Source: Ignavibacteriota bacterium (GTDB taxonomy: Bacteria; Bacteroidota; Ignavibacteria; Palsa-1295). From it: 64,000 bases of DNA. Within the stretch, counting starts at the first letter, position 1. Every line of letters starts with the position of its first letter. A model generated the notes under the pieces. It did no database searches and had not been told where the DNA came from. It was given only the letters and a program-made list of their open reading frames with translations. This document shows positions 2,219-59,746 of the stretch, piece after piece. The stretch is taken from NCBI GenBank assembly GCA_963787835.1, contig CAWBEI010000002.1, forward strand, positions 476,369-540,368. Reading direction: 5' to 3'. Both the position numbers and the translations under genes were made by a program.

Positions 2219-3440
2219 ATGACTTATCACATCACCAGAGCTGTAATCCAAGATCCAAGAAAAATTTCTCTCCTTCGCGCATTGCTGTTTGGCAGTGTGC
2301 TTATTTCCACTTCACTCTCAGTGGTTTCGTTTGCACAAATTCGAACGTTGTCGTCGCTTCCAAAGCCGGACCACATCCTTGTTGTTATTATGGAGAATCA
2401 TAGCTATGACGAGATCATCGGCTCATCGGCAGCCCCGCATATCAACGCTCTCGCGAGTGGTGCAAACTCCGCAGTGTTTACACAATCGTTCGCCATCGAG
2501 CATCCGAGCCAACCGAACTATCTTGATCTCTACTCCGGCAGCAATCAGGGGGTGACCAGTGACGACCAACCGACAAACTTGCCGTTCACAACACCTAATC
2601 TTGGCGGAGAACTAATCGACGCCGGACTTTCCTTCGCAACCTACTCCGAAGATCTTCCAAGTGTCGGATTTGGTGGCGCAACTTCCGGGAATTATGCCCA
2701 AAAACACAATCCCTCATCCGAATGGATGGGAACCGGAACGAATCAGCTCTCGGATACCACGAACCAACCGTTCACAGCATTTCCCTCGGATTTTACACAA
2801 CTGCCCACCGTGTGCTATGTCATCCCGAACCTGAACGACGACATGCACAACGGCACCGATCCATCTACCATTATCGCTGGTGACATGTGGGTCTATAACA
2901 ATCTAAACACATATATCCAATGGGCGAATACGCACAATAGTCTTTTTATCATCACTTTTGACGAGGATGATAATTCACCGGTAAATCAGATTCCGACCAT
3001 TTTTTCCGGGCAAATGGTAAAAACGGGGCAGTATTCTGAAACGATCAATCATTTTAATGTACTTCGAACCATCGAAGATATCTATGGCCTTCCTCATGCC
3101 GGCAGTGCTGCAACGGCAACTCCGATCTCGGATACCTGGCTCGTTTCATCTGACGTAACAACGCCAGAGAATCATCAACCAACGATCTCCATCTTCCCAA
3201 ATCCAGCCACGAGCGGCACAAAAATTCAGTGCTCAATCGATAACATAGGTTTGGGAGAAGTTTTTATTGTCAACACACTCGGTGTTGAAGTGTCACGACT
3301 GTTTTCCGGGACACTCGTCACAGGAGATTACTCGTTTGTTTGGGATTCGACTGGAATGCCGGGCGGGGATATATGAATGTTGTATCAGAACGATCGGAAC
3401 AATGGCTCATTTTCCGATTGTCTTAGTGGATCGAAACTGA
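2219..3440 (+). CDS. Phosphoesterase-family protein (phospholipase C / acid phosphatase-like) with a T9SS C-terminal sorting domain; a 1-nt frameshift splits the C-terminal domain near nt 3365
   Basis: …HILVVIMENHSYDEI…PNYLDLYSG… matches the phosphoesterase family. The annotated ORF ends at 3376, but the +1 frame continues …GIYECCIRTIGTMAHFPIVLVDRN*, which matches the terminal strand pattern of other T9SS C-terminal domains in this window. Confidence 0.6.
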
Positions 3441-32900: not shown

Positions 32901-34018
32901 GGCACGAGAAATCTTCCACCATTTACTTGACCGCCATTCGCCCCGTTCCCAAATTGCTGATCAAAACCACCAATGCCCGCAGTACCAAATCCCCCACCTC
33001 CGCCGCCGTATTCAATGAACGGATTAACATCCTCTCCTCCGCCGGAACCGCCACCAAAACCGCCAGATGACGATGGCGATGAACCCAAACTTGCCACACC
33101 GCTCATTCCATAGGGCGCACCGGTACCACCACCACCACCCTGATCATCCGGATTACTTTGCCCTCCCACGACACCGGTCGCAGCGCCTCCTCCGGATGCG
33201 CCAAGCGTATCGAACCCCTCAGAAGCGGAACCGGAATTCCCAAGTGAATCGCTCGGGCAACTTCCTCCGCCAGTGAAACCTATTCCGCCGGCACCGCCCC
33301 AACCATGTCCACCCCCACCGCCACCGGGGCCCCCGTTGATACCTTCGGCATCGACGGAGACCGTCGAATTCGAAAGGCGAACCGGTCCTTTGGAAAGAAG
33401 CACAACCGGAAGGAGTCTTGGGTTGCTCGGGAACGTATCAGGGTTAATTGTTGAAAAAAAGATATGTGCGTTCGTAACGATGAGCGAATCAACCAATAAG
33501 GTATTGCTTCCCGAGAGCTGGCCAAATCCATCACCGATGGTGGTATCCTGTGTGATGGGGCCTAAGTGTTGCAGCGAATCAATATAAAAATTTACCGTGT
33601 CGGACTGCCCCAATAGCGGGCTAAATACAAAAAATGGCACTGACCCAAACGAGGCGCCGGGTACAATAAAGAGGGGGATCTGAAGCACCCTCCCATTCCA
33701 GGTAACGATGGTTGGTCCGACGATCACACGATCGGTGTCCGCAGCATTTAATAGAACAAAGCGTACCGAGGAATCGAGTGCATCATATCCAAACGGACGG
33801 AAGTCGCTCCCGCGCGCAAGAAGTTCCACAACTACATTCATTCCCGGCGCGGCACGGTCCGGACGAATCGTTACTATATGACCAACCTGAGCCTGTGCGG
33901 GAAACGCGAAAGACAGCGCGAGAATCAATAACAACAAATAACCACTAACGAATGATGGATGAAGGAATTTTTCCCCCCATTCACCATTCGCCATTCGTAA
34001 TTCGTAATTCCTTTTCAT
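29999..34018 (-). CDS. Giant (about 1,339 aa) secreted T9SS cargo protein with a Gly-rich beta-helix-like region and multiple ASH / choice-of-anchor-D-like repeats. The exact start is uncertain
   Basis: Signal peptide (…LLLLILALSFAFPAQAQ). Long GGxGG glycine-rich tract. Repeated …DFG(T/N)V.(V/I)G…L.I.N.G… modules. The type-A sorting domain …GRYMLEVSSLGWRVATPFIIDR. The first ~13 codons fall inside a heptamer-repeat element. Confidence 0.8.
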   Translation of the reverse strand: MKRNYELRMANGEWGEKFLHPSFVSGYLLLLILALSFAFPAQAQVGHIVTIRPDRAAPGMNVVVELLARGSDFRPFGYDALDSSVRFVLLNAADTDRVIVGPTIVTWNGRVLQIPLFIVPGASFGSVPFFVFSPLLGQSDTVNFYIDSLQHLGPITQDTTIGDGFGQLSGSNTLLVDSLIVTNAHIFFSTINPDTFPSNPRLLPVVLLSKGPVRLSNSTVSVDAEGINGGPGGGGGGHGWGGAGGIGFTGGGSCPSDSLGNSGSASEGFDTLGASGGGAATGVVGGQSNPDDQGGGGGTGAPYGMSGVASLGSSPSSSGGFGGGSGGGEDVNPFIEYGGGGGGFGTAGIGGFDQQFGNGANGGQVNGGRFLVPLAGGSGGGAGNSVDLGDGTLGGSGGGGGGAIELVSFDSIVAISSTFSARGDSGTSGIEIAAGGGGGSGGAIYLASPKGIRGSSTSINVDGGNAGQPGIDSSGFAGGLGGLGRVRIDGASNMTPAQQLSPVWTEGIAVVPTPTIVNSNGSVLVTGTAQDLTNTLDTIRIFYRTQHTDWEWVDTVRAPAGNWAKWLPLLHDSLLYVVAFVEVNQPSSDPMHFTYEPGWLVSDVSMAIISHSASPFLVVQDTLDFGTVRVGRCKTLALVIRNEGEAPLSIGKGSISGPSGFSLVPDTALRIPPSQSDTLQVEFCPDSAASDVAAITFLSNDPTDSTKVMTLFGTGLVRQDSLVISPSNVNFGNVPIGQCKSDTVSLLSAGADTLYLDRSSWNTPPFSMRLDPPDTAIAPSQKRMLILTFCPTDSGDVRQTQALDDRQDSIELAGVGVSRLASSLGAHDLGPNCLGHTITFTDTISNLGNDTITLQTLQRKEPPQHDSIDVILQPNERYPVQISWVPDSTGRFTDTILYQLSDTILSTILSYRVVGAQVHFDSVVPFHFVCISDSVMAGDSLVNLGLDTLAVSISNLNSGGRFAILDTVSRMLPGQISSLRFSFTPSEPSDTVEMLDTVQLILGDAGCDSTIDIILSGKGIDSGLAAESIDFDSVLVPDCGEDSSLIGNPCGPSVSIDSIAWKSSAFQPASSMPILVPSFGSAEVKFRFCPSDSGTEIDTATLYPNIGQPFKLALRGTGFKEGSLWAHFTISNAAARAGDTVVTTIRLDSSSLKGQYPASVAVTYDPSVVAFISGFTSPAHSVLQDSVAFSETIDFSNPGFIEAISWLTLLGPRASSAIGLKLTTDTSVNIEVTRGSVVVTDCTGLNGQFVPGGNYAIGPVTPDPASESASFGLQLGNDGFVEAGLYDMTGKLITNILAQSFTRGTYTINIPMDALSSGRYMLEVSSLGWRVATPFIIDR

Positions 34019-49760: not shown

Positions 49761-49834
<74 letters not shown>

Positions 49835-49842
49835 CGAGCTAA

Positions 49843-49925
49843 AAAATTATGAATTATGAAAGAGGAATTATGAAAATAATTCGCCAAACCAATCTCATAA
49901 TTCGTAATTCATAATTCATAATTTC
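49843..49925. promoter_or_regulatory. Inverted arrays of ATTATGA / TCATAAT heptamers between tRNA-Trp and the secE start codon
   Basis: ATTATGA-ATTATGA-…-ATTATGA … TCATAAT-TCGTAAT-TCATAAT-TCATAAT. Ends 8 nt before the secE ATG. Confidence 0.6.
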
Positions 49926-49932
49926 CCCTACG

Positions 49933-50166
49933 ATGGCTGAAACAACAGTAATACAACCGGGCGAAAAGCAAGGGCTTGGAAAAAAGTCCTTCTCGTTCTT
50001 TACAGACGTTGCGCGCGAAATGCGCAAGGTAAGCTGGCCCAAGCGCGCAGAACTTCAGGATGCGACCGTTATCACGCTGGTACTCTGTGTGGTGCTCGCA
50101 CTTTTTACGTTCGGGGTCGATAAGATCTTTGAAACGATCATTCGCGGAATTTTCAGGTTATTCTAA
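49933..50166 (+). CDS. secE: Preprotein translocase subunit SecE
   Basis: Small protein with a single C-terminal TM (…ATVITLVLCVVLALFTF…), upstream of nusG. Confidence 0.9.
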   Translation: MAETTVIQPGEKQGLGKKSFSFFTDVAREMRKVSWPKRAELQDATVITLVLCVVLALFTFGVDKIFETIIRGIFRLF

Positions 50167-50720
50167 TGACAGCAGAACCACAAGCGATCGCTTTAAAATG
50201 GTATGCACTCCGAACCTTCACTGGCTCGGAGGCGAAAGTCAAGGCCTATATTGAGGACGAGATGAAGCGTCGCGACCTCACCGAGCGCGTGCCAGAAGTT
50301 GTGATCCCGAATGAGAAGGTCTATGAAGTTCGCGACGGAAAAAAGAAGGTAAAAACCAAGAGCTTCCTTCCCGGCTATATTCTCATCGAAGCTGCGCTCG
50401 ATAAAAAACTGATCGATCTTATTCTCTCCATTCCCGGCGTCGTCAGCTTCGTCGGCCCGACGAAAACACAGCCCACCGCGCTCCAGCCCGACGAAATGCG
50501 CCGCATTCTCGGCAAGGTAGAAGAAAAACGCGGACTGGAGTCACCGGAAGTACGTTACCACATGGGCCAGCCCGTGAAGGTAATCGATGGACCGTTCTCC
50601 GGCTTCGGCGCTCAGATCAAAGAGATCAACGAAGACAAGCAGAAGCTGAAAGTTGAAGTCTCCATCTTCGGACGCAAAACACCCGTCGAGCTGGACTACA
50701 CGCAAGTCGAACCGGAGTAA
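50166..50720 (+). CDS. nusG: Transcription termination/antitermination factor NusG
   Basis: NGN domain (…WYALRTFTGSEAKVKAYIE…) and a KOW motif (…KVIDGPFSGFGAQIKEI…). Confidence 0.95.
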   Translation: MTAEPQAIALKWYALRTFTGSEAKVKAYIEDEMKRRDLTERVPEVVIPNEKVYEVRDGKKKVKTKSFLPGYILIEAALDKKLIDLILSIPGVVSFVGPTKTQPTALQPDEMRRILGKVEEKRGLESPEVRYHMGQPVKVIDGPFSGFGAQIKEINEDKQKLKVEVSIFGRKTPVELDYTQVEPE

Positions 50721-50725
50721 ATCAG

Positions 50726-52060
50726 GTGCGACGCGCGCTTTTTGTCCTCCTGATCGCGCTCGTTCCATGCACTATATTTGCGCAAGGCTACCGCGGCCGC
50801 GATTTCTGGATCTGCTTTCCGCAAAATGCGGTCATCGAACAGAATCACACGCTTCATCTCTCCATCTATATTACTGCTGAGTCGCGCGCGATCGGCTCGA
50901 TCACAAATTTATTAGACAGCACCACTCAAAATTTCTCGGTTGAATCTGGCGCATCCATTGAACGGGACATCGATACCGAGATCGAGATCGGTTCATCGGA
51001 ACGATCGCAGCGTAATTCCGTCCACATTGTAAGCGATCAGGACATTTCGGTCTATGTCGTCGATCACCGCCCCGCATCTACCGACAGCTACATGGCGATA
51101 CCAACAGAATATTTAGGAAAGGAATATGTGGTCGCTGGATATACCACCCTACGCTATGGTGGTATCAGATTTGGATTTACTTCCCAAGCCACGTTCGTTG
51201 CGACCGAGGATAACACCTGGATCGCGGTTCATCTTGCAGGAACTACTACCGGAGGACTCCCTAAAGGACGAACCCTTATGTTCGGATTGAATCGTGGCGA
51301 GACGTATCAAATTCAAGGCGGATACGAGAGTGGGGATCTCACGGGTTCCACCATTTCCTCGACGAAGCCCATTGCGTTCTTCACCGGTCACAGATGTGCA
51401 CAGGTGCCAAGCGAAGTCGAGTTCTGCGATATGTTGCTGGAATCGGAACCACCCGCAAATGACTGGGGAAAAGCATTTGTGCTTACAAAATTCGAGGGTA
51501 AAGACTATTCGGTGGCGCGAGTAATCGCAAATGCCGATTCCACTCAGGTCTCGATAAACGGAGCCAATGCCAAAACGATCAACCGTGGCGAATTCTATGA
51601 AGTGGACACGTTGTATCACGATGCGATCATTACCACGAGCAGACCAGCACTCGTTGCGCAATATTGCACAAGCTCGGACGCCGATACGATCAAAATTGGA
51701 GATCCGTTCATGCTCATCGCAATCCCAAGCGATCGGTTCACCAAAGAAACGACAACCACATCCGTCGTCGATACTCGATTCGAGCATTTTCTGAATATCG
51801 TTGTGCCTGATTCCGGCGTTACTTCTCTCAAGATCGACGGAATGATGGCAGCACTTGGATCATTACCACCGGGAGTTTCCCTTTCTTCGAAACGAATACT
51901 TGCCGCTGCCAGAGCGACCGTGTTTGCATTTCGCGTCCCATCCGGCCGGCATATGGTAGAGTGCAATGCTCCAGTAGCTGTTTATTCTTACGGCTTTGGA
52001 GTAGCCGATCAAAATTACGACTCCTACGGCCACTCCTGCGGAATGCGGCTGGACAAATAA
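50726..52060 (+). CDS. Secreted hypothetical protein with an IgGFc-binding-protein-N-terminal-like (beta-helical) signature; no T9SS sorting domain
   Basis: Signal peptide, then …GYRGRDFWICFPQNAV…, resembling the G-x-E/D-F-W-x-x-F-x-x-N start of that domain family. Inserted between nusG and fusA. Confidence 0.45.
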   Translation: MRRALFVLLIALVPCTIFAQGYRGRDFWICFPQNAVIEQNHTLHLSIYITAESRAIGSITNLLDSTTQNFSVESGASIERDIDTEIEIGSSERSQRNSVHIVSDQDISVYVVDHRPASTDSYMAIPTEYLGKEYVVAGYTTLRYGGIRFGFTSQATFVATEDNTWIAVHLAGTTTGGLPKGRTLMFGLNRGETYQIQGGYESGDLTGSTISSTKPIAFFTGHRCAQVPSEVEFCDMLLESEPPANDWGKAFVLTKFEGKDYSVARVIANADSTQVSINGANAKTINRGEFYEVDTLYHDAIITTSRPALVAQYCTSSDADTIKIGDPFMLIAIPSDRFTKETTTTSVVDTRFEHFLNIVVPDSGVTSLKIDGMMAALGSLPPGVSLSSKRILAAARATVFAFRVPSGRHMVECNAPVAVYSYGFGVADQNYDSYGHSCGMRLDK

Positions 52061-52156
52061 TTATCGTAAACTTGCCATTAGGTGCGATAATAGCCATATA
52101 ATGCCCTTTTTTGAACTAACGGAAGCCCCTTCGGGTTACAGGCGCGCCTTCCAGAA

Positions 52157-52236
52157 AATGATGAATGATGAATTATGAATGATGAAGTGGGAAGGAAGTT
52201 AAAGAAATCAACATAATTCATCATTCATAATTCATA
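52157..52236. promoter_or_regulatory. Inverted arrays of ATGATGA/ATTATGA and TCATCAT/TCATAAT heptamers ending 1 nt before the fusA start codon
   Basis: ATGATGA-ATGATGA-ATTATGA-ATGATGA … ATAATTC-ATCATTC-ATAATTC-ATAATTG. Confidence 0.6.
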
Positions 52237-52237
52237 A

Positions 52238-54343
52238 TTGTCAGCAATGTCACGCAAACAACCTTTAGAGCGCACGCGAAATATCGGGATCATGGCGCAT
52301 ATCGACGCCGGTAAGACCACGACCACCGAGCGCATCCTCTTTTATACCGGCCGGGTTCACCGCATGGGCGAAGTCCACGAGGGCGGCGCAACTATGGACT
52401 GGATGGAACAGGAGAAAGAGCGTGGCATCACGATCACGTCTGCCGCCACAACCTGCACCTGGCGCGATACCGCGATCAACATCATTGACACCCCAGGCCA
52501 CGTTGATTTTACCGTAGAAGTCGAGCGTTCGCTGCGCGTACTCGATGGTGCGGTTGCGCTGTTTTGCGCGGTTGGCGGAGTAGAGCCGCAATCGGAGACG
52601 GTGTGGCGTCAGGCCAACAAGTATGGTGTGCCCCGTATTGCGTTCGTCAACAAGATGGATCGCGTCGGCGCAGACTTTTTTAACGTCATCACGATGATCA
52701 AGGAGCGGCTCGGAGCAAATCCGGTTCCGATCAATCTCCCGATCGGTGAAGGCGAAATGTTCGCCGGCGTCATCGACCTGGTCGAGAACAAGGCGCGCAT
52801 GTATAATGAAAGCTCCCTTGGCACAACGTGGGATGAAATTGAAATTCCCGAAAAGCTGAAAGAACACGCCAAAGAATGGCGTACACGCCTCTTTGAATCT
52901 GTTGCAGAAATTGATGACACGCTGCTTCTGAAATATCTCGAAGGCGAAGAGATCACGCGTGAAGAAGTGATGCGCGTGCTTCGTTTGGCTGTTATCGATT
53001 CGAAGATCATTCCCGTACTTTGCGGGTCGGCGTTCAAGAACAAGGGCGTGCAGGATCTGCTGGATGCCGTCGTGGATTACCTCCCAAGCCCCGTCGATGT
53101 CGGCGCGATCGAAGGGCATCATCTGAATTTGACCGATCACATCAAGCGCGAGCCGGACGATAAAGAAAAATTCGCCTCGATCGCGTTCAAGATCATGACC
53201 GACCCGTTCGTCGGGAAGCTCACGTTCTTCCGCGTGTATTCCGGTACCTTGAAATCAGGTTCCTATGTATTGAATTCCGTGAGCGGACGCAAGGAGCGCA
53301 TCGGGCGCATCCTGCGCATGCACGCGAACCATCGTGAGGATATTGAAGAAGCTTACACAGGCGATATTTGCGCCGCTGTCGGACTCAAGCAAACACGCAC
53401 CGGCGATACGCTCTGCGATGAGGATGATCCCATCGTGTTGGAACGAATGATCTTCCCGGAACCCGTTATTTCGCTCGCCGTCGAGCCAAAAACCAAAGCA
53501 GATTCCGAAAAAATGTCGGAAGCATTACAAAAGCTTGCCGATGAAGATCCTACGTTCAAAGTGAAAACGGATGAAGAGACCGGGCAGACCATTCTTTCCG
53601 GTATGGGCGAGCTGCATCTGGAAATTCTGGTCGATCGCATGAAGCGCGAATTCCGCGTGGAGGCCAACGTCGGTAAGCCGCAGGTCGCGTACAAAGAAAC
53701 GATCCGCAAGAAAGTTACACAGGAAGGCCGCTTCATTCGCCAGTCTGGCGGACGCGGTCAGTTTGGTCACGTCTGGATCGATGTCGAGCCGAACGAGCCA
53801 GGAAAGGGTTACGAGTTCGAGAATGCCATCGTCGGAGGAACGATCCCGAAGGAATATATTTCCCCGGTCAGCGCGGGCATTGTCGAAGCGATGAAGAATG
53901 GCGTGCTCGCCGGGTATCCCGTCGAGGACATCAAGGTTCGTTTGTTCGATGGCTCGTTCCACGAAGTCGATTCGAGCGAAATGGCGTTTAAGATCGCAGG
54001 CTCCATGGCCTTTAAGGAAGCCGCGCGTAAAGCGAATCCCGTTATTCTGGAACCCGTGATGGATGTCGAAGTCGTGACGCCGGAAGATTACATGGGCGAC
54101 GTGATCGGCGATCTCACCAAACGCCGTGGCAAGATCGAAAGCATGACTGCGCGCTCGGATGCACAGGTCGTAAAAGCCTCTGTGCCGCTCTCGGAAATGT
54201 TCGGGTATGCGACGGTGATGCGCTCGATGTCGCAGGGCCGCGCGATCTACTCCATGCAGTTCTCGCGGTACGAAGAAGCGCCGCGCGCCGTGCAGGAACA
54301 GATCATCGAAGCCCAAAAGGGCAAGAGCGGGTCGGGATCGTAA
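52238..54343 (+). CDS. fusA: Translation elongation factor G
   Basis: G1-G5 motifs (…[19 protein letters not shown]…, …DTPGHVDF…, …NKMD…) and full EF-G domains II-V. Confidence 0.95.
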
Positions 54344-54722
54344 TCACGAATTTCAATCCCGAAAGGACGGCATATTTGCAGCCCCGGACGTGAGTCCGGG
54401 GTTTTGCGTTTTGTATAAACGCGTAGGTCGGTGCTTCCATCGTGGGCGATGGAGCCAGCCCGACAATCCCCGAGAACGAAAGAAAAAGTGCCGTAGGGAC
54501 GTGCTGCGCACGTCCTTTGTGCCGGAGCGCTAATTCCAGATTTTGGATGATCTCAAATTCGTTTGACATTCACCGGGGCGGACGTGCGCAGCACGTCCCT
54601 ACGGATCCAGCTCCGATATGAGCGGCATATTGGTAGCCCCGTGCGTAAGCGCGGGGTGCGCGGGATCTTTTTAAGAGCCAGAGTCCCGGAGCGACGACAC
54701 AAAAAAGTGCCGGAGGCACGAA

Positions 54723-54926
54723 GTACCCGCAGCCCAGGGTGGAGCGAAGCGGAACCCTGGGTAACGAATAAAATTAGAGTTTATTAGCCCTGAAAGGGCG
54801 ATGTTTGCCGCCGGGATTTTACAACGCCCTTTCAGGGCTTGGGAACATAAAACGCAACGCTAACCCAGGGTTCCGCTCGCAAGCTCGCTTCACCCTGGGC
54901 TGCGAGTACTCCGTCGCTCCGCGACT
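54723..54926. mobile_element. MITE derivative of the IS200/IS605-like element (left-end hairpin, inner palindrome, right-end hairpin; no tnpA)
   Basis: Left GTACCCGCAG-CCCAGGG…CCCTGGG (54723-54766). Inner AGCCCTGAAAGGGCG…CGCCCTTTCAGGGCT (54786-54839). Right …CACCCTGGG-CTGCGAGTAC-TCCGTCGCTCCGCGACT (54862-54926). It ends 7 nt from the stop of the 298-aa gene. Confidence 0.55.
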
Positions 54927-54932
54927 AATTGC

Positions 54933-55829
54933 TCATTCAATTATTGGAACTATCTGAATTTTGTTGGACAGTTCGGTACGACCGAAACTTTTCAGGAAGG
55001 ATTGCAGGGCGTTGAAGCCGGATTGGTCAGGTACGACGATTTCCAAAACATCCTCATCGTTGAACGTTAAGTTGAATTCGGGCTTTAACCATTTATCGTC
55101 AGAACCAGCGTCAATAGTTTCGTCGCCCTTAAAACCATGAGGAGACAGTGCGCGCCATTCCCTCTCATCATAATTGCGAATGCGCTCTCCGGTTGGGAGA
55201 TTTTCTTCGTAGCAGCGCATATAGGAGTCGCGATCCTCAAGTTCATTGTGGAGCCTGCGTATAGCCCACATTAGAGCACTGAAGGTTTGCCGCATTGCTT
55301 CATCTTCTGGCAGGTTGCCATCTGCAATCGCAACTAATTCCCGCATGTATTTTTCGAGTTTGCCGTGTTCGGTTCGAAGAGCCGTTGGGTCCATTGGCGT
55401 TCCATCTCCATATTGCTCAGAGAGTTCACGGAGTCTTGATGCCTGCAACATTTGCAAATAACTTCTGTCCGAACTATATGGCTCCGGCAACACGTCCGGC
55501 AAATGATTTAAGTTCTTGAATGCTAAGTACGAGCCTCCGACACCTACGGAGTCAGTATGCACATAACGGACGGGCGAAATCCGATTTTTTATTCCCCATT
55601 CCTTTGTCAAACCAATGGCCACCGGACGCGCTTTGCGAAGGTGTGGAGCGTCAGATGAAGGCAGGTCGCAAAAACAAACAACATAATTGGTCTGCGTGTA
55701 AGGAAACTTGGGGTATGGAACCGTTTCGACCTGTTTAGAATAGCGGAACCCGCCACAGGCCAGAATCGATTTGCATGCCTCTAATGATGTATAATGGAAA
55801 AGCGTGTCAGTACTGATCTTATTGGGCAT
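54933..55829 (-). CDS. Hypothetical protein with an AbiGi/DUF2971-like N-terminal motif; candidate abortive-infection / defense component
   Basis: N-terminal …TLFHYTSLEACKSILACGGF… matches the FHYT…IL signature of those families. The rest is unassigned. Confidence 0.4.
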   Translation of the reverse strand: MPNKISTDTLFHYTSLEACKSILACGGFRYSKQVETVPYPKFPYTQTNYVVCFCDLPSSDAPHLRKARPVAIGLTKEWGIKNRISPVRYVHTDSVGVGGSYLAFKNLNHLPDVLPEPYSSDRSYLQMLQASRLRELSEQYGDGTPMDPTALRTEHGKLEKYMRELVAIADGNLPEDEAMRQTFSALMWAIRRLHNELEDRDSYMRCYEENLPTGERIRNYDEREWRALSPHGFKGDETIDAGSDDKWLKPEFNLTFNDEDVLEIVVPDQSGFNALQSFLKSFGRTELSNKIQIVPIIE

Positions 55830-55854
55830 ATCCCCTCCAAAATTTTACATTATT

Positions 55855-56391
55855 TTACGCCTTCAAAAACCCCAGCTCATACACCATTGGCTGTAACTTT
55901 TCCGTCAATGCTTTGTAGGCCGATTCGAAGGGTTTGAAGCTGACGGGCGGGAAATCGCCGCTTTCGTTACGAGCTTGCAACGCCTTGCGGATTTGATACC
56001 ACCCCACATCCGCGCGGTTTAGTTTTAGTTCTTCGCGGACGGTGTGAACGTCAGTATCGGCAAAATATGCTTTCCACAATGCTTTTCCGGCTTCGAGCAC
56101 TGCGCTGGCTTCTTTCGAGAATTTCTTACCGCGCATATATTGCACCATAAAATCGCTCTCGAACCTGTCGGGCGCGCCGACCTCTTTTTCAGTGAAGGGA
56201 ATGAAATGGTTCACGATGCTCCACTTCTTTCCGTTCCATTCTAAATCGTTGGCGCTGGCGGTGAGGTTGCTGCCTAAGAATTTAGTCCCGAAGGGATGGT
56301 GTACTCGCAGCCCAGGGTGTAGCGTAGCGGAACCCTGGGTTCGAGGTAGGTATAAATTTCTAAGCCCCGAAGGGGCGATGTACCTAATCAT
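55855..56391 (-). CDS. Hypothetical protein. Its 5' end is overlapped by the IS200-like left end, so the true start is uncertain
   Basis: ORF encoding …GKKWSIVNHFIPFTEKEVGAPDRFESDFMVQYMRGKKF… with no recognisable family. The first ~30 codons coincide with 56301-56377 of the element. Confidence 0.3.
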   Translation of the reverse strand: MIRYIAPSGLRNLYLPRTQGSATLHPGLRVHHPFGTKFLGSNLTASANDLEWNGKKWSIVNHFIPFTEKEVGAPDRFESDFMVQYMRGKKFSKEASAVLEAGKALWKAYFADTDVHTVREELKLNRADVGWYQIRKALQARNESGDFPPVSFKPFESAYKALTEKLQPMVYELGFLKA

Positions 56392-56803
56392 CGTCCTTCA
56401 AAAAATATTTTGGATCGTATTCAATCCCTGCCGCTTTCAACATATCCTCAAACTCTTCTTGGAACGTCTTATGACGATGATGTTCCTCTTGATTTTCGAT
56501 GTATTGCGCGACATTCTTGAGATGACTTGCGCTTACGCTGAATACACCATAACCGCCTTGCCAGCTAAAATCTTTTCCTAATTTTGATTTCAACCAAGCC
56601 GATGATTTCGATTTTATCTCACGAACGACGGTTGCGACCGACGATTCACGACCGAGATCGATCAGGAGGTGCACATGATCAGGCATTCCGCCTTCCATAA
56701 TCAATCGCGCCTTGCATTCGTGCAAGATCGGAGGTTAACCCAACATTCCGTCCGCCGCGGCGGACTCCATGTTGGGCTGCGAGTACTCCGTCGCTCCGCG
56801 ACT
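56301..56803 (-). mobile_element. tnpA: IS200/IS605-like insertion element: left-end hairpin, N-terminally truncated Y1 (HuH) transposase TnpA (56384..56725), right-end hairpin
   Basis: The 113-aa ORF carries the HuH motif (…PDHVHLLI…), the catalytic Tyr block (…GGYGVFSVS…) and the family C-terminal motif …YIENQEE. It starts at TTG directly after an in-frame TAA at the right-end boundary, so it lacks the N-terminal ~40 aa. Left end: GTACTCGCAG-CCCAGGG…CCCTGGG. Right end: CCCAACAT…ATGTTGGG-CTGCGAGTAC. Confidence 0.7.
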
Positions 56804-56830
56804 ATTGAATCTCAGTGGCGAAGCCACGAT

Positions 56831-57009
56831 GTACTCGCAGCCCAGGGCGCGCGAAGCAAGCCCTGGGTCATGAATTTTAACAAAATCAAGCCCTGTAAGG
56901 GCGGTGTACTTCGCCCTTTCAGGGCTTGATAAAAATAAGAATGGTTCCGTTAACCCAACATTCCGCTTCGCTCCATGTTGGGCTGCGAGTACTCCGTCGC
57001 TCCGCGACT
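56831..57009. mobile_element. Second MITE derivative (left end, inner palindrome AGCCCTGTAAGGGCG/CGCCCTTTCAGGGCT, right end); its last bases supply the stop codon of the HNH ORF
   Basis: Same terminal and subterminal hairpins as the element at 54723-54926. Confidence 0.55.
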
Positions 57010-57322
57010 AAGATTCGCCAACAAGTGCATCCATGATTGGAATATTTCTCCGGCGGGAATTATCGTGCAAGCAACATGTCACGAGATTATCGTATGAATT
57101 ATCCCCGCCTTTTGTGACAGGCTGAATGTGATCGAGCGTCGCGCTGAATCGTGTTAGCTGCTTACCGCATTTGTAACACTTGTAGCCGTCCCGTTCGAAA
57201 ATCTTGAGACGATTTTCAGCGACATTGTAAAAGAGTGCCGAATTCCACGACCGAGTGACGAAACAAATACCAATAGAATGCGGCCTCGTATGGTAACAAT
57301 CGGGGCTGAAGAAAATCCACAA
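57008..57322 (-). CDS. HNH endonuclease
   Basis: …GYKCYKCGKQLT…LDHIQPVTKGGDNSYDNLVTCCLHDNSRRRN… gives the full HNH / zinc-finger motif. The start is probably downstream of the annotated Met. Confidence 0.7.
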   Translation of the reverse strand: MWIFFSPDCYHTRPHSIGICFVTRSWNSALFYNVAENRLKIFERDGYKCYKCGKQLTRFSATLDHIQPVTKGGDNSYDNLVTCCLHDNSRRRNIPIMDALVGES

Positions 57323-57449
57323 TCTGACAGACGATACCTGGATGTTCGAGAGCGTCGAAGTTTCTCTCGAACGAATCCGGAGCGGCAGCCTTTGAATCCG
57401 TTTCGATCTCGTTAAGCAGTTCTCGAATTTTTTCGATTTGTTCTTTCAT
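57216..57449 (-). CDS. Small hypothetical ORF; overlaps the HNH ORF in another frame
   Basis: 77 aa. Its stop overlaps the HNH ORF by 107 nt, so the pair may be one frameshifted gene. Confidence 0.25.
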   Translation of the reverse strand: MKEQIEKIRELLNEIETDSKAAAPDSFERNFDALEHPGIVCQIVDFLQPRLLPYEAAFYWYLFRHSVVEFGTLLQCR

Positions 57450-57700
57450 ATTTTTACAAAATTACGAATAAACTCATCTTCCTGCGTTTCGATCTTGAAG
57501 GAAACGAGGTGCGTACCGATATACTGCGAGACGGTGTCCAGCGCTTCCTGCGTAACGTCGCTCGCCCGCTTGCCCCACTTGATCGTCTTTTTTTCGAGGA
57601 ACGGAATAACGTCCGCGCTCTTCATTATAGCCGCTTTCTGCGTATCGACCACCGCAAGAAATGGCGGAACATACTCGCCCTTGTTCAATGCCTGCTGCAC
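57446..57700 (-). CDS. Small hypothetical ORF (GTG start) in 4-nt overlap with the next ORF
   Basis: 84 aa, with ATGA-type coupling to 57216..57449. Confidence 0.25.
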   Translation of the reverse strand: MQQALNKGEYVPPFLAVVDTQKAAIMKSADVIPFLEKKTIKWGKRASDVTQEALDTVSQYIGTHLVSFKIETQEDEFIRNFVKI

Positions 57701-57897
57701 ATAATGCAGACCGCCGCGGCGGACGTGAACATCGCATAACTGGAAAGCTTGGAGTTATCCTTCGCCTCGAACCAAATTTCTTTGGTTTGAATATCGATCA
57801 GGTTTTTCGAATACCCCTTCAACCCCAGCGCCTTGATGTAAATATCCTTCACATCCTCCTCGCTTTTGCACTGTTTCAGTTTTTCAAAGAGGGTCAT
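57685..57897 (-). CDS. Small hypothetical ORF; first of four consecutive overlapping minus-strand ORFs
   Basis: 70 aa. Its 3' end overlaps the next ORF at a CCGCCGCGGCGG palindrome. Confidence 0.25.
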   Translation of the reverse strand: MTLFEKLKQCKSEEDVKDIYIKALGLKGYSKNLIDIQTKEIWFEAKDNSKLSSYAMFTSAAAVCIMCSRH

Positions 57898-58047
57898 GCG
57901 TGTGAAGGGTTATGGATTGGGTTATGAATTCGGGATTGATGCTTTGCGGGCGCGGGAAAGAACATAGTGGGCACCTATTTCGTGTTCCATCCATCCCACG
58001 ATTTGTGCCGTCCCTCCGGGACTTTTAACTCTAAAAAAATCGCTAAC

Positions 58048-58067
58048 CCCGGACTCACGTCCGGGGC
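58048..58067. repeat. GC-rich hairpin CCCCGGACTCACGTCCGGGG. It is the exact reverse complement of 54383-54402, and together the two bracket the island
   Basis: Flanking bases also match (…catatt[t/c]g[c/t]agccccggacgtgagtccggggtt…), giving ~35-bp imperfect inverted repeats. Confidence 0.6.
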
Positions 58068-58561
58068 TACGAATATGTCGTGCCTATCGGCACTAAGAAA
58101 ATAATTTGGAATTTTGAGGCGTCTCGGAAAAGTGTCGTATATTAGGTGGTGAGATGATGGGCACCTATATCAATTACGAATTAAGAATTACGAATTAAGA
58201 GTAGGGGCTCGGGGTTCATTGACAATCGTCGGCGGTGGCTTTCGTTATGAACGAGTCCTTTGAGAAAATGGATTTTACTATTCTTTCAGAACAAATGGCG
58301 AAAGCAGCTCGGAAACGAGGGGTCTTCGGGAACTCACAAGAAAAAGAAATGGCACCTATTTCCAATAGAACATTAGTAAGGGTGGTAAACATTTTTACCT
58401 ACGTACCGGGAAACGGGAAGGAGCAAAATTCGTTGTGAAGGTACTCTGGCACGTTTAGCCGGAACATCCTCCATAATCACGACACGTTGCCTTTGATCGA
58501 ACCACCCTCCACTCCCACTGGAAATCCGGTCCCGCCGGATCTGCCACCCGATCCACATATC

Positions 58562-59746
58562 ATGGATTACGTGGTGCTTGCGACCAGCCGTAAGTGGACT
58601 ATGCTTGCGATCACGCTCCTGTGCGGGTTTGGAGCGCTGGCACTTACCTATATGTTGCCACAGGTGTTCATGGCGCAGGCGACGTTGCTGCCGCCGGATC
58701 GGCTATCCTCCTATAACCTTCTATCGAAGTTCAAGTCGGGTTTCGCCTTGGAAATGTTGAAGGAGGTGGAAAATCCCTCCGTCGATCTGCTCCAGAATAT
58801 TCTGGAATCCCGTTCGCTCGATGAGCGGCTCGCTCAGGATAGTGCGATCCATCGCTATTTTAGCGCGCAGGGTCTGCATGGGAAAGAGTTGGTCCTTGCC
58901 GTCCAAAAATCGATCAAGGTTTTACCAGGATTTTCGAAAGTGGATGTTCAGGGAACCGTGGGTACAGGTTGGTTCCCAACCGGAGCGCAAAAGGAGAATG
59001 CCAGGGTAATGTCATCGTATTTCACGAATCTGGCGATCGACTGTATGGATAGTACGCTCCGAGCGGCTATTCGTTCTTTGGCTCACTCGACGATGCTGTT
59101 TGCCGATTCCGATTATGCGCTTAAGAGCCGGGAATTGGATTCTCTTGACCGCGTTCAGGAAGCGTTTGAGCAAGCCAACGGAGTCGTGAAATTGGAGGCA
59201 CAAACCATAGCTTCCATCGAGCATTTGGGCGAACTGAAAGCTGCTCGCGATGAGGCAGAGATCAAACTCCACCTCCTCGAATTGGACTTGTCCGATGATG
59301 ACACTAAAAAGGAAGAGGCCGTTGCAAAGCTGAATGAAGCTGAGTTCGTCGCCAACACGTATGAAACGGAACGGCAGATCGGCCCCGCATTCGACTCGCT
59401 TCCGGAAGTAAGCCGGCGTTATGCAGAATTACTTCGTTCCAGGAAAGAATTGGAACCGATTGTTTCCTTCCTCCGAATAGAAACCGAGCAACAGCGGATC
59501 TTCGAGGTTCGAGAAAAATCCTTTATCACAGTTTTAGATCCTGCGGAACCTCCGGAAACCCGGATTAGCCCGATACGATCCCAGATGGGAATTCTGGGAT
59601 TGATTGTCGGCGCCGCTCTTTCGATCCTGTATATGGCCTTCTATGGGCTGCGTCTTTCCTGGAAGAAGGAGCGAAAATCGCGCAATGAGACCAGACCGGA
59701 AGTATTAGAAGCCGCAAAGAGCATCTTTGCCCATAATAACCTATGA
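58562..59746 (+). CDS. Polysaccharide chain-length determinant (Wzz/PCP-family) protein
   Basis: N- and C-terminal TMs (…WTMLAITLLCGFGALALTY…, …ILGLIVGAALSILYMAFY…) flank a long coiled-coil periplasmic domain. Start set at the internal Met (MDYVV). Confidence 0.65.
   Translation: MDYVVLATSRKWTMLAITLLCGFGALALTYMLPQVFMAQATLLPPDRLSSYNLLSKFKSGFALEMLKEVENPSVDLLQNILESRSLDERLAQDSAIHRYFSAQGLHGKELVLAVQKSIKVLPGFSKVDVQGTVGTGWFPTGAQKENARVMSSYFTNLAIDCMDSTLRAAIRSLAHSTMLFADSDYALKSRELDSLDRVQEAFEQANGVVKLEAQTIASIEHLGELKAARDEAEIKLHLLELDLSDDDTKKEEAVAKLNEAEFVANTYETERQIGPAFDSLPEVSRRYAELLRSRKELEPIVSFLRIETEQQRIFEVREKSFITVLDPAEPPETRISPIRSQMGILGLIVGAALSILYMAFYGLRLSWKKERKSRNETRPEVLEAAKSIFAHNNL

What the first reader, a model, noticed from the sequence alone, without database searches (positions are those of the whole stretch)
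54361..58080. ~3.7 kb decaying accessory island between fusA and wzz, bracketed by inverted copies of a GC-rich hairpin
CCCCGGACGTGAGTCCGGGG (54383-54402, followed by a T-run that probably acts as the fusA terminator) reappears as its exact reverse complement at 58048-58067 with matching flanks (~35-bp imperfect inverted repeats). Between them lie an AbiGi/DUF2971-like gene, an unknown 178-aa gene, an IS200/IS605-like element, two MITEs, an HNH nuclease and three overlapping small ORFs. Several gene ends coincide with repeat-element ends. The content and the bracketing repeats suggest a defense-type island that has been colonised and partly broken up by hairpin-targeting mobile elements.
Basis: partly seen in the sequence, partly recalled or inferred. 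Interest (0 to 1): 0.6.

Follow-up and report, generated by a model that had tools for sequence, protein, structure and literature searches.

The report
Decayed gene island framed by hairpin repeats
The stretch between fusA and wzz is a real but largely dead accessory insertion. Its GC-rich "bracket" hairpins belong to the same two-hairpin repeat family as the ends of a small tyrosine transposase element and its miniature copies, a family so far listed only as an orphan RNA motif.

Summary
CCCCGGACGTGAGTCCGGGG occurs twice in 64 kb, at 54382-54401 and inverted at 58047-58066, within 37-nt arms that are 92% complementary.

The interval is an insertion. One relative has fusA followed directly by wzz. 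Others carry a mini version or different cargo.

The content is mostly wreckage:
- The two ends of one ~798-aa methyltransferase-like gene, with the middle 516 codons missing.
- An internally deleted HNH gene.
- A 5'-truncated IS200-like Y1 transposase.
- Two ~200-bp miniature derivatives (MITEs) of that transposase element.
- One intact AbiGi-family gene.

The bracket hairpins are not unique island ends. They are ~95-nt REP-like units built as short hairpin, GYAG, long hairpin, T-run. This is the same module that ends the transposase element and the MITEs, and it matches Rfam Acido-Lenti-1.

The left copy is conserved after fusA in a relative that lacks the island, so it probably serves as the fusA terminator. 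The inverted pair also frames sister copies of the island, including one at another genomic site.

The transposase belongs to TnpAY1 subclass 1.2, which the literature describes as having no REP partner. Here it is flanked by inverted modules in four phyla. Mobilisation of the whole island by this enzyme is inferred, not shown.

The parts
52238..54343 (+). fusA (EF-G), left anchor gene
   Evidence: 701-aa ORF. Its homologues are EF-G of Kapabacteria/Ignavibacteriota.
54355..54413 (+). REP-A1: short hairpin, GCAG, long hairpin (54382-54401), then TTTTGCGTTTTG. Probably the fusA terminator.
   Evidence: RF01687 36.1 bits; model R1 57.2 bits; terminator-like by consensus scan; DNA fold z = -3.3. 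An orthologous copy follows fusA in L036, L042 and L034.
54491..54604 (.). 114-bp element with perfect 25-nt inverted ends, each a GTAG followed by an 8-bp hairpin
   Evidence: (I15). Absent from all fetched loci.
54609..54703 (.). REP-A2 unit, of the 'GTGC/GCGC' stem subtype. It is the left arm of the ~90-nt inverted pair with 58002-58090.
   Evidence: I4, I9. R1 27.6 bits, and this copy was not in the training set. Alignment with the left arms of L019 and L034.
54706..54926 (.). MITE1 (221 bp): the two ends of the Y1 transposase element without the gene
   Evidence: R1 hits at 54706-54762 (-) and 54863-54926 (+). Its left ~100 nt and right ~107 nt match the ends of the full element in L021.
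54933..55829 (-). AbiGi-family gene (298 aa), the only intact gene. It occupies variable slot 1.
   Evidence: Pfam AbiGi 49.1 bits against a cut-off of 22.4; PADLOC AbiGi 3.8e-11. Identical copies lie on two ~1-kb Logan contigs. Sister islands carry other ORFs at this position.
55861..56280 (-). 3' remnant (aa 658-797) of a ~798-aa methyltransferase-like gene. The listed 178-aa ORF 55855-56391 runs on into the repeat.
   Evidence: tblastn with the Acinetobacter plasmid protein: 66% identity. It forms the C-terminus of a 520-aa ORF in L010. The ORF's first 36 aa match repeat ends in all loci.
56284..56803 (.). Y1 transposase element with inverted two-hairpin ends (56284-56340 and 56738-56803). 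The tnpA remnant at 56384-56725 (-) lacks about 40 N-terminal codons.
   Evidence: Y1_Tnp profile positions 39-121 only. Full-length relatives are 151-153 aa. R1 hits. Alignment shows DHVH, WQ and YIENQEEHH.
56814..57009 (.). MITE2 (196 bp)
   Evidence: R1 hits at 56814-56868 (-) and 56953-57009 (+). RF01687 33.1 and 25.2 bits.
57008..57449 (-). HNH gene remnant in two frames (ORFs 57216-57449 and 57008-57322). It occupies variable slot 2.
   Evidence: Pfam HNH. The 77-aa ORF matches the first 72 aa of ~240-aa HNH proteins. The middle ~90 aa of that family is missing here.
57467..57897 (-). 5' remnant (aa 1-141) of the same methyltransferase-like gene, frameshifted by an 8-nt net insertion that creates the palindrome CCGCCGCGGCGG (57711-57722)
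   Evidence: tblastn: 76-79% identity. An intact 192-aa ORF occupies this position in L019. The insertion is shown by alignment.
58002..58094 (.). REP-A3 unit (right arm): short hairpin 58010-58022, A/T run, long hairpin 58047-58066, short hairpin 58080-58094
   Evidence: RF01687 39.0 bits, above the gathering score of 37. R1 48.6 bits, not in the training set. DNA fold z = -6.2.
58136..58362 (+). R3: a conserved non-coding element shared with the sister islands and also found on its own elsewhere
   Evidence: blastn and MAFFT against L034, L019, L007 and L004. A promoter-like site lies at 58114-58143.
58487..59746 (+). wzz-like gene, right anchor
   Evidence: Pfam Wzz. Syntenic wzz-wzy-yfhO in L034, L039, L040 and L042.

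Best explanation
The fusA-wzz spacer of this Kapaibacterium-like (Ignavibacteriota) genome is an insertion-prone site. In this lineage it holds the wreck of a horizontally spread module: an ~800-aa methyltransferase-like gene followed by a variable small gene, here of the AbiGi family.

The large gene was split by a small element that encodes an IS200-like tyrosine (HUH/Y1) transposase of subclass 1.2. The two ends of that element are inverted copies of a two-hairpin module: short hairpin, linker, G(T/C)AG, long hairpin.

Decay followed:
- 516 codons of the large gene were lost.
- An HNH homing-endonuclease-type gene arrived and was itself internally deleted.
- The transposase gene lost its 5' end.
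- Two gene-less copies of the element (MITE or REPIN-like doublets) and a tiny palindrome were added.

The left copy lies 12 nt after the fusA stop and most likely terminates fusA. The right copy faces the opposite way, so together they would block transcription entering the island from either flank.

Shown: the anatomy, the empty site, the gene remnants, the family relationship of all the repeats, the covariation of both stems, and the flanking of subclass 1.2 transposase genes by inverted modules in four phyla.

Inferred: that the Y1 transposase cuts and joins these modules as single-stranded DNA, as RAYT and IS200 enzymes do; that the modules act as terminators; and that they served as landing or recombination points that let the island be copied to a second site.
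For: Empty site and alleles:
- L040/L041 have fusA directly followed by wzz. Homology resumes at window 58393.
- L042 has the same bracket around a single 125-aa ORF.
- L034 has the same island with different cargo in both variable slots.
- L039 has unrelated cargo plus two MITEs.

Broken gene:
- Window pieces map to aa 1-58, 61-141 and 658-797 of a 798-aa plasmid protein.
- N-terminal homologues run on into the NPPY methyltransferase-like part seen in L010.

HNH remnant.

Repeat family:
- RF01687 hits fall on all the ends and solo copies.
- My model R1 finds 131 copies in 35 sources. Only the 9 clustered copies lie in the window, none in the 22-kb control locus L035 and one in L036.
- 98% of cells are paired, and all 13 pairs show double compensatory changes.
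- An exact 24-base end pattern occurs in 31 stretches from 11 MAG assemblies.

Transposase:
- Full-length relatives of 151-153 aa are always flanked by one minus-strand and one plus-strand module.
- The same holds in Phycisphaerae, Gemmataceae and Calditrichota homologues.
- The motifs DHVH, WQ and YIENQEEHH fit subclass 1.2 of Quentin et al. 2018 (PMC6006769).

Left hairpin after fusA without an island: L036.

Sister island at another site with the same aa-658 junction: L019. A partial copy is in L007.

No target-site duplications are visible around 34 elements, as expected for HUH Y1 enzymes.
Against: - No activity was tested. The window's transposase copy is truncated, so any mobility would need an intact copy elsewhere in the genome, which I could not see because the source genome is masked.
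- Genome-wide copy number in the source genome is unknown. The other 60 kb of the window has no copy.
- Most RF01687 hits are below the gathering score.
- The covariation counts come from an alignment fitted to the model.
- The methyltransferase assignment rests on motifs (WDMCCGVGNLE, NPPY) and weak PADLOC hits only. There was no Pfam or PDB match, and the structure model failed.
- Terminator function is a consensus match only.
Confidence: 0.7

Rival explanations
1. The whole ~3.7-kb unit is, or was, a composite mobile element. The Y1 transposase acts on the outer inverted REP-A pair as on a giant REPIN and carries the cargo genes from site to site.
For: - A sister copy in another genome (L019) lies between unrelated genes, yet has the same inverted REP-A pair, the same internal order and the same aa-658 junction.
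- Left arms share one stem subtype and right arms another across the window, L019 and L034.
- The fusA-wzz site is empty in L040/L041.
- There are no target duplications, as for Y1 enzymes.
Against: - Homology between the copies continues about 270 nt beyond the right REP-A, into R3, which also occurs alone.
- The left REP-A after fusA exists without an island in L036.
- Cut sites at inverted ends would lie on opposite strands, unlike the single-strand 'peel and paste' of IS200/IS605 (established mechanism).
- No empty site was recovered for the L019 location.
- Segmental duplication or recombination between repeats explains the same data.
Confidence: 0.2
2. One reading: a defence island delimited by its own private inverted repeats and later colonised by hairpin-targeting mobile elements.
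For: - AbiGi-family gene.
- HNH gene.
- A methyltransferase-like gene with a possible N-terminal D..ExK motif (sequence).
- Variable cargo slots as in defence hot spots.
- Repeats that abut gene ends.
Against: - The repeats are not private. They belong to the same family as the elements said to have colonised the island.
- No AbiGii partner and no complete known defence system was found by PADLOC.
- The HNH gene belongs to a ~240-aa family, and the sister islands carry homing-endonuclease-type genes (HNH_repeat, MUG113/T5orf172) in that slot. This suggests selfish nucleases rather than defence effectors.
- No evidence was obtained for insertion into hairpins.
Confidence: 0.1
3. The two hairpins are ordinary, independently evolved terminators, or an assembly artefact, and the similarity is chance.
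For: Both copies score as terminator-like.
Against: - Two exact 20-mers against 0.01 expected.
- The flanks also match.
- Both hit one Rfam family.
- An independent JGI assembly (L034) and Logan contigs reproduce the arrangement.
Confidence: 0.02

Closest known systems
REP / REPIN - RAYT systems (REPtrons; Nunvar 2010, Bertels & Rainey 2011 PMC3116915, Ton-Hoang 2012, Quentin 2018 PMC6006769)
   Same: - A Y1 HUH transposase gene flanked by inverted copies of a hairpin repeat.
- The same repeat is dispersed as singles and as ~200-bp inverted doublets.
- A G(T/C)AG sits at the foot of the long hairpin.
- Copies lie at gene 3' ends with terminator-like tails.
- There are no target duplications.
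   Different: - The protein is not a class 2 RAYT. It has YIENQEEHH instead of Y---NP, and scores 26-30 bits against a cut-off of 80 for NCBIfam REP_Tyr_transpos.
- The repeat is a two-hairpin module, not a single palindrome.
- The doublets keep internal sequence from the transposase element, so they look like classical MITEs.
- One genome holds at least 3 gene copies at about 72-90% identity.
TnpAY1 subclass 1.2 (Quentin et al. 2018, PMC6006769)
   Same: DH[IV]H, WQ and Y---Q--HH motifs, about 150 aa, a conserved C-terminal tail, and occurrence in the Bacteroidota-related FCB group.
   Different: That paper reports no REP and no IS200-type terminal hairpins for this subclass, and a range limited to Cyanobacteria and Bacteroidetes. 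Here the genes are flanked by inverted two-hairpin modules in Ignavibacteriota, Planctomycetota (two lineages) and Calditrichota.
Rfam RF01687 Acido-Lenti-1 RNA motif (Weinberg et al. 2010, PMC2864571)
   Same: Two hairpins with a conserved GGCUA linker. The right bracket scores 39.0 bits, above the gathering score of 37. Like the Rfam seed, it is multi-copy and clustered.
   Different: Rfam files it as an sRNA gene of unknown function in Acidobacteria and Lentisphaerae. Here it behaves as a DNA repeat that forms the ends of a transposase element. The loops of the long hairpin are often 13-30 nt, so most copies fall below the gathering score.
IS200/IS605 insertion sequences
   Same: The transposase passes NCBIfam transpos_IS200 in full-length relatives (66-69 bits against 55). 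It has hairpin-bearing ends and no target duplication.
   Different: The ends are inverted repeats rather than same-strand subterminal hairpins. There is no tnpB. The Y motif is that of subclass 1.2.
TIRtrons / TIRYT (Di Nocera et al. 2013, PMC3733652)
   Same: A Y1 transposase gene flanked by terminal inverted repeats, some of them double palindromes, which form moderate repeat families arranged as dimers or clusters.
   Different: Quentin et al. assign most TIRYTs to subclass 2.1 or other class 2 subclasses, which have a C-terminal HTH domain and a GGGGWSAS motif in the repeats. Neither feature is present here.
Type IIG/IIL single-chain restriction-modification enzymes (e.g. MmeI). A resemblance only, for the broken ~798-aa gene.
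   Same: The domain order suggested by motifs: an N-terminal D-x8-E-x-K stretch (IDIQTKEIWFEAK), then motif I (WDMCCGVGNLE), then NPPY, then a C-terminal domain. Total length is about 800 aa.
   Different: No Pfam, NCBIfam or PDB match was found. PADLOC MTase_II hits are weak (E about 1e-3). The structure model was unusable. The protein is unusually conserved across phyla, including its C-terminus.

Membership tests
Rfam RF01687 Acido-Lenti-1 | Covariance-model score at or above the gathering score (37 bits) | tested here: met
   58047-58094 scores 39.0 bits. The other copies score 36.1, 33.1, 30.1, 25.2, 21.4 and 20.7 bits, all below the cut-off.
Rfam RF01687 Acido-Lenti-1 | Two hairpins (8 bp and 5 bp) joined by a conserved linker and supported by covariation | tested here: met
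   98% of cells are paired and 13 of 13 pairs show changes on both sides across 127 distinct copies. The slid controls give 27-52% paired. Caveat: the alignment was fitted to the model.
TnpAY1 subclass 1.2 (PMC6006769) | HuH motif DH[IV]H, W motif WQ, Y motif Y---Q--HH | tested here: met
   DHVH, SWQ and YIENQEEHH are present in the window copy and in L021, L004, L007, L044, L047 and L050.
TnpAY1 subclass 1.2 (PMC6006769) | Short protein (median 148 aa) with a conserved C-terminal tail | tested here: met
   Full-length relatives are 150-153 aa with a conserved F..E...L....E.D..Y tail. The window copy is cut to 113 aa.
TnpAY1 subclass 1.2 (PMC6006769) | Reported property (descriptive, not defining): no REP and no terminal hairpins | tested here: not met
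   Inverted two-hairpin modules flank the gene in 6 Kapaibacteria loci and in 3 of 3 distant loci.
IS200/IS605 | Transposase reaches the NCBIfam transpos_IS200 cut-off (55 bits) | tested here: met
   L021 scores 66.3 bits and L004 68.7 bits. The truncated window copy scores 42.9 bits.
IS200/IS605 | Left and right ends carry subterminal hairpins on the same strand, with no terminal inverted repeats | tested here: not met
   The left end matches the model on the minus strand and the right end on the plus strand in every copy. The ends form 42-60-nt inverted repeats.
RAYT / REPtron | Protein of class 2 type (Y---NP motif; NCBIfam REP_Tyr_transpos cut-off of 80 bits) | tested here: not met
   Scores of 25.6-29.8 bits. 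The motif is YIENQ.
RAYT / REPtron | Gene flanked by inverted copies of a repeat that is dispersed in the genome | tested here: met
RAYT / REPtron | GT[AG]G tetranucleotide at the foot of the palindrome | tested here: inconclusive
   GTAG is present in REP-A2 and REP-A3, in many relatives, and in the 114-bp element. REP-A1 and all the transposase-element and MITE ends have GCAG.
RAYT / REPtron | Single copy per genome with vertical inheritance | tested here: inconclusive
   At least 3 copies occur in assembly CAVTNP (L004, L007, L019). In contrast, the gene has a single conserved context in four Phycisphaerae assemblies.
AbiG abortive-infection system | AbiGi-family protein (Pfam PF10899 above the gathering score) | tested here: met
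   49.1 bits against 22.4. The NCBIfam equivalog gives only 14 bits against 300.
AbiG abortive-infection system | Adjacent AbiGii partner gene | tested here: not met
   No AbiGii hit among any ORF of the interval in Pfam or PADLOC.
Genomic island | Present/absent polymorphism at a conserved site (empty site in a relative) | tested here: met
   In L040/L041, fusA and wzz are 213 bp apart and carry no repeat copies.
Genomic island | Integrase or recombinase gene, tRNA target, or direct-repeat att sites | tested here: not met
   No integrase family was found. The nearest tRNA is at 49761-49835. The bracketing repeats are inverted, not direct.
MITE | Short non-coding element whose ends match those of an autonomous element | tested here: met
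   MITE1 consists of the left ~100 nt plus the right ~107 nt of the L021 element.
MITE | Target-site duplication | tested here: not met
   No consistent direct repeat flanks the 34 elements inspected. This is the expected result for Y1 transposases.

The most novel reading that the evidence does not exclude
The two-hairpin module that Rfam lists as the orphan 'Acido-Lenti-1 sRNA' is really the DNA substrate of subclass 1.2 Y1 transposases. This would be a REP-like partnership spanning several phyla that has not been described. Inverted pairs of the module could also carry kilobase-scale cargo, so that this enzyme moved the whole 3.7-kb island, with its swappable gene slots, between genomic sites. 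The first half alone I rate at about 0.7. The probability given is for the full statement, including cargo mobilisation.
Probability: 0.18. Interest if true: 0.75.

Novelty: new variant of a known kind. Interest (0 to 1): 0.42.

Why it matters
The island itself is ordinary: a decayed accessory insertion in a variable spacer. Its repeats are the interesting part.

They tie together two loose ends in the literature:
- An Rfam motif with no known function (RF01687).
- A Y1 transposase subclass (1.2) reported to lack any cognate repeat.

If the link holds genome-wide, RF01687 should be re-annotated as a REP/MITE-type DNA element. Subclass 1.2 would then join the REP-associated enzymes, extending that biology to Ignavibacteriota, Planctomycetota and Calditrichota.

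The locus also offers a natural allelic series at one site: empty, mini, and three different cargos. That series could be used to study how such repeats seed variable regions.

Tried and rejected
- Exact look-ups of the window's fusA product failed with either start codon. The source genome (1.92-Mb contig, P0001) appears to be withheld, so no genome-wide copy count was possible.
- I first concluded that the tnpA truncation at 56733 was shared with L019 and L007. The ORF lists showed those copies continue further: L007 is intact and L019 is frameshifted. The truncation is therefore specific to the window.
- The AlphaFold model of the N-terminal 332 aa of the methyltransferase-like protein was unusable (pLDDT 40), so I ran no fold search.
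- PDB sequence searches found nothing. Pfam found no family for the 520-aa part.
- RNAalifold gave no convincing structure for R3 (covariation term +2.16).
- The metagenome scan for a second-site empty-site test (the L019 left-flank lipoprotein) returned only 62%-identical relatives without synteny.
- I found no target-site duplication or clear target motif around the elements beyond A/T-rich flanks.
- The 114-bp element was not found in any fetched locus.
- I could not test whether the Rfam seed genomes (Lentisphaera araneosa, Koribacter versatilis, Rhodopirellula baltica) carry subclass 1.2 genes next to the motif.

Full report
**Observation.** The 20-mer CCCCGGACGTGAGTCCGGGG lies at 54382-54401 and, reverse-complemented, at 58047-58066. 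These are the only two matches in 64 kb even with 3 mismatches allowed (expected 0.01). The matching arms are 37 nt long and 92% complementary (54367-54403 / 58045-58081). GC content does not set the interval apart.

**All the repeats are one module.** Rfam places 58047-58094 in RF01687 (Acido-Lenti-1) at 39.0 bits, above the gathering score of 37. At a relaxed threshold the same family hits six more places: the left bracket (36.1 bits), both ends of the two ~200-bp elements, one end of the transposase element, and a third solo copy at 54609-54656. Aligned, every copy reads, on one strand, as short 5-bp hairpin, ~12-nt linker, G(T/C)AG, long 7-8-bp hairpin.

I built a covariance model (R1) from 7 window copies. 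It recovers the two solo copies that were left out of training, at 48.6 and 27.6 bits. It finds 131 copies in the window plus 34 related loci. In the window, only the 9 copies between 54.3 and 58.1 kb are found. The 22-kb control locus L035 has none and L036 has one. Across 127 distinct copies, 98% of cells pair and all 13 pairs show compensatory double changes, against 27-52% pairing when the partners are slid. The caveat is that this alignment was fitted to the model.

An exact 24-base version of the MITE end occurs in 31 stretches from 11 Candidatus Kapaibacterium/Ignavibacteriota MAG assemblies. The family is therefore lineage-wide and multi-copy, but clustered rather than evenly spread.

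**The transposase element and its miniatures.** Full-length relatives of the window's 113-aa remnant are 151-153 aa (L021, L004, L007). Each is flanked by one minus-strand and one plus-strand module, so the ends are truly inverted. MITE1 equals the left ~100 nt plus the right ~107 nt of the L021 element with the gene removed. No target duplication is seen around 34 elements.

The protein passes NCBIfam transpos_IS200 (66-69 bits against 55) and fails REP_Tyr_transpos (26-30 bits against 80). Its motifs DHVH, WQ and YIENQEEHH, together with its length, match TnpAY1 subclass 1.2 of Quentin et al. 2018. That paper lists the subclass as having no REP and no IS200-type hairpins (PMC6006769).

I fetched three distant homologues at 45-47% identity:
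- **Phycisphaerae (L044):** the gene is flanked by R1 hits at 2398-2453 (minus strand) and 3015-3070 (plus strand).
- **Gemmataceae (L047):** the gene is flanked by 60-nt inverted repeats, 92% complementary, with the same short-hairpin / TAGCC / long-hairpin layout.
- **Calditrichota (L050):** the gene sits in an array of modules, five of which hit RF01687 at 26-36 bits.

The Rfam seed itself is multi-copy and arrayed. In Lentisphaera the flanks show neighbouring inverted copies. I could not test whether those seed genomes carry the gene.

**Comparative test of the island.** The source is a MAG with a 1.92-Mb contig. Close fusA relatives show an allelic series:
- **L040/L041 (96% aa identity):** fusA is followed by wzz after 213 bp, with an ordinary terminator and no module copies. 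Homology resumes at window 58393. This is the empty site.
- **L042 (95%):** the left and right REP-A arms surround a single 125-aa ORF.
- **L034 (99% aa, 91% nt):** the same island, but AbiGi is replaced by 174-aa and 108-aa ORFs, and the HNH gene by an unrelated HNH plus HNH_repeat gene.
- **L039 (96%):** unrelated cargo plus two MITEs.
- **L035 and L036 (97%):** other genes follow fusA. L036 still has the two-hairpin module directly after the fusA stop, with a compensatory stem (CCCAGGG/CCCTGGG) and a T-run. L035 has a plain terminator.

The left bracket is therefore tied to the fusA 3' end and probably terminates fusA.

**What the cargo is.**
- *Small ORFs o70 and o84 (57467-57897)* are one intact 192-aa ORF in L019. 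Homologues of that ORF continue into a methyltransferase-like region (WDMCCGVGNLE ... NPPY).
- *Full-length versions* of 795-798 aa sit on small Acinetobacter and Fluviibacter plasmids, annotated as hypothetical proteins. tblastn maps the window pieces to aa 1-58, 61-141 and 658-797. The middle 516 codons are gone.
- *An 8-nt net insertion* creating CCGCCGCGGCGG frameshifts the 5' piece.
- *The first 36 aa of the 178-aa ORF* are simply the repeat read as protein.
- *The 77-aa ORF* is the N-terminus of a ~240-aa HNH family. The window copy lacks the middle ~90 aa and is out of frame.
- *Only the AbiGi-family gene is intact.* It has no AbiGii partner.

**Sister copies.** L019, in assembly CAVTNP, lies between unrelated genes. 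It carries the same order: REP-A, MITE, variable ORF, 3' fragment, transposase element, variable nuclease gene (MUG113/T5orf172), 5' fragment, REP-A, R3. Identity is 81-90%, and the junction at aa 658 is the same. L007 has a partial copy. Left arms share one stem subtype and right arms another across the window, L019 and L034. The already-broken unit was therefore copied to new sites. Homology runs about 270 nt beyond the right REP-A, into R3, which also occurs alone. The hairpins are thus not clean element ends. A second-site empty-site test was inconclusive.

**Interpretation.** The interval is a decayed accessory insertion in a variable spacer. Its bracket is a pair of REP-like units of the same family as the ends of a subclass 1.2 Y1 transposase element and its MITEs.

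I think the Y1 enzyme most likely processes these modules as single-stranded DNA, by analogy with IS200/IS605 and RAYT enzymes (established for those families; PMC3479197, PMC6006769). I also think the modules provide terminators and recombination or landing points. Both points are inference. Whole-island mobilisation by the outer pair remains possible (about 0.2).

**Novelty.** The island is ordinary. The link between RF01687 and subclass 1.2 is, as far as the searched literature shows, not described.

Noticed in passing
window 58136-58362 (core 58214-58362); L034 9042-9342; L019 7077-7220; L007 7277-7501; L004 3443-3584: A conserved non-coding element (R3), 76-94% identical between loci. It lies next to the right REP-A in the islands but stands alone in L007 and L004. 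It has no Rfam match, RNAalifold support is weak, and a promoter-like site sits just upstream at 58114-58143.
   Followed up: partly
window 57970-57981, 58160-58171, 58351-58362: GGCACCTATWTC occurs three times within 400 nt (4 matches in the window with 1 mismatch allowed, against 0.27 expected). Similar GGCACCTGTTTC motifs follow fusA in L036. This may be a binding site or a promoter element.
   Followed up: no
window 54491-54604: A 114-bp element with perfect 25-nt inverted ends, each a GTAG followed by an 8-bp hairpin (canonical REP layout). It looks like a very recent REPIN-like doublet of a different repeat type. It is absent from all 52 fetched loci.
   Followed up: partly
window 56752-56763 and 57711-57722; L016 1864-1875; L039 7497-7508; L042 11022-11033: The 12-nt palindrome CCGCCGCGGCGG appears as a small insertion in the loop of a transposase-element end and inside the methyltransferase-like 5' fragment, where it causes a frameshift. 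It recurs in related loci (2 in the window against 0.01 expected).
   Followed up: partly
L037 4167-6563 (Acinetobacter plasmid pYUSHP14-3); L038 1106-3493 (Fluviibacter pSHINM1); L010 163-1725: The ~798-aa methyltransferase-like 'hypothetical protein' (NPPY) is 60-85% identical between Kapaibacteria, Chryseobacterium and proteobacterial small plasmids. It has no Pfam family and is often found truncated even on long contigs. This suggests a fast-spreading, fast-decaying gene.
   Followed up: partly
L021 6432-7932; L004 6490-7700: In two species, the intact transposase element lies between pieces that look like one N6_N4 methyltransferase / Mrr-type endonuclease gene. This is a second case of the element sitting inside a restriction-modification-type gene.
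   Followed up: partly
L044 2501-3165; L047 3-1456: Subclass 1.2 transposase homologues lie directly next to ileS in both Phycisphaerae and Gemmataceae contigs. In Phycisphaerae, four assemblies show the same context, which looks like single-copy vertical inheritance.
   Followed up: no
window 58172-58199; 49894-49923; 33986-34009: A tandem AATTACGAATTAAG repeat, with similar short A/T-rich repeats elsewhere in the window.
   Followed up: no
window 49761-54343; L034, L035 and L040 upstream regions: fusA here is not in the rpsL-rpsG-fusA operon. Instead it follows tRNA-Trp, secE, nusG and an IgGFc_binding-domain gene. This order is conserved in all the relatives fetched.
   Followed up: no
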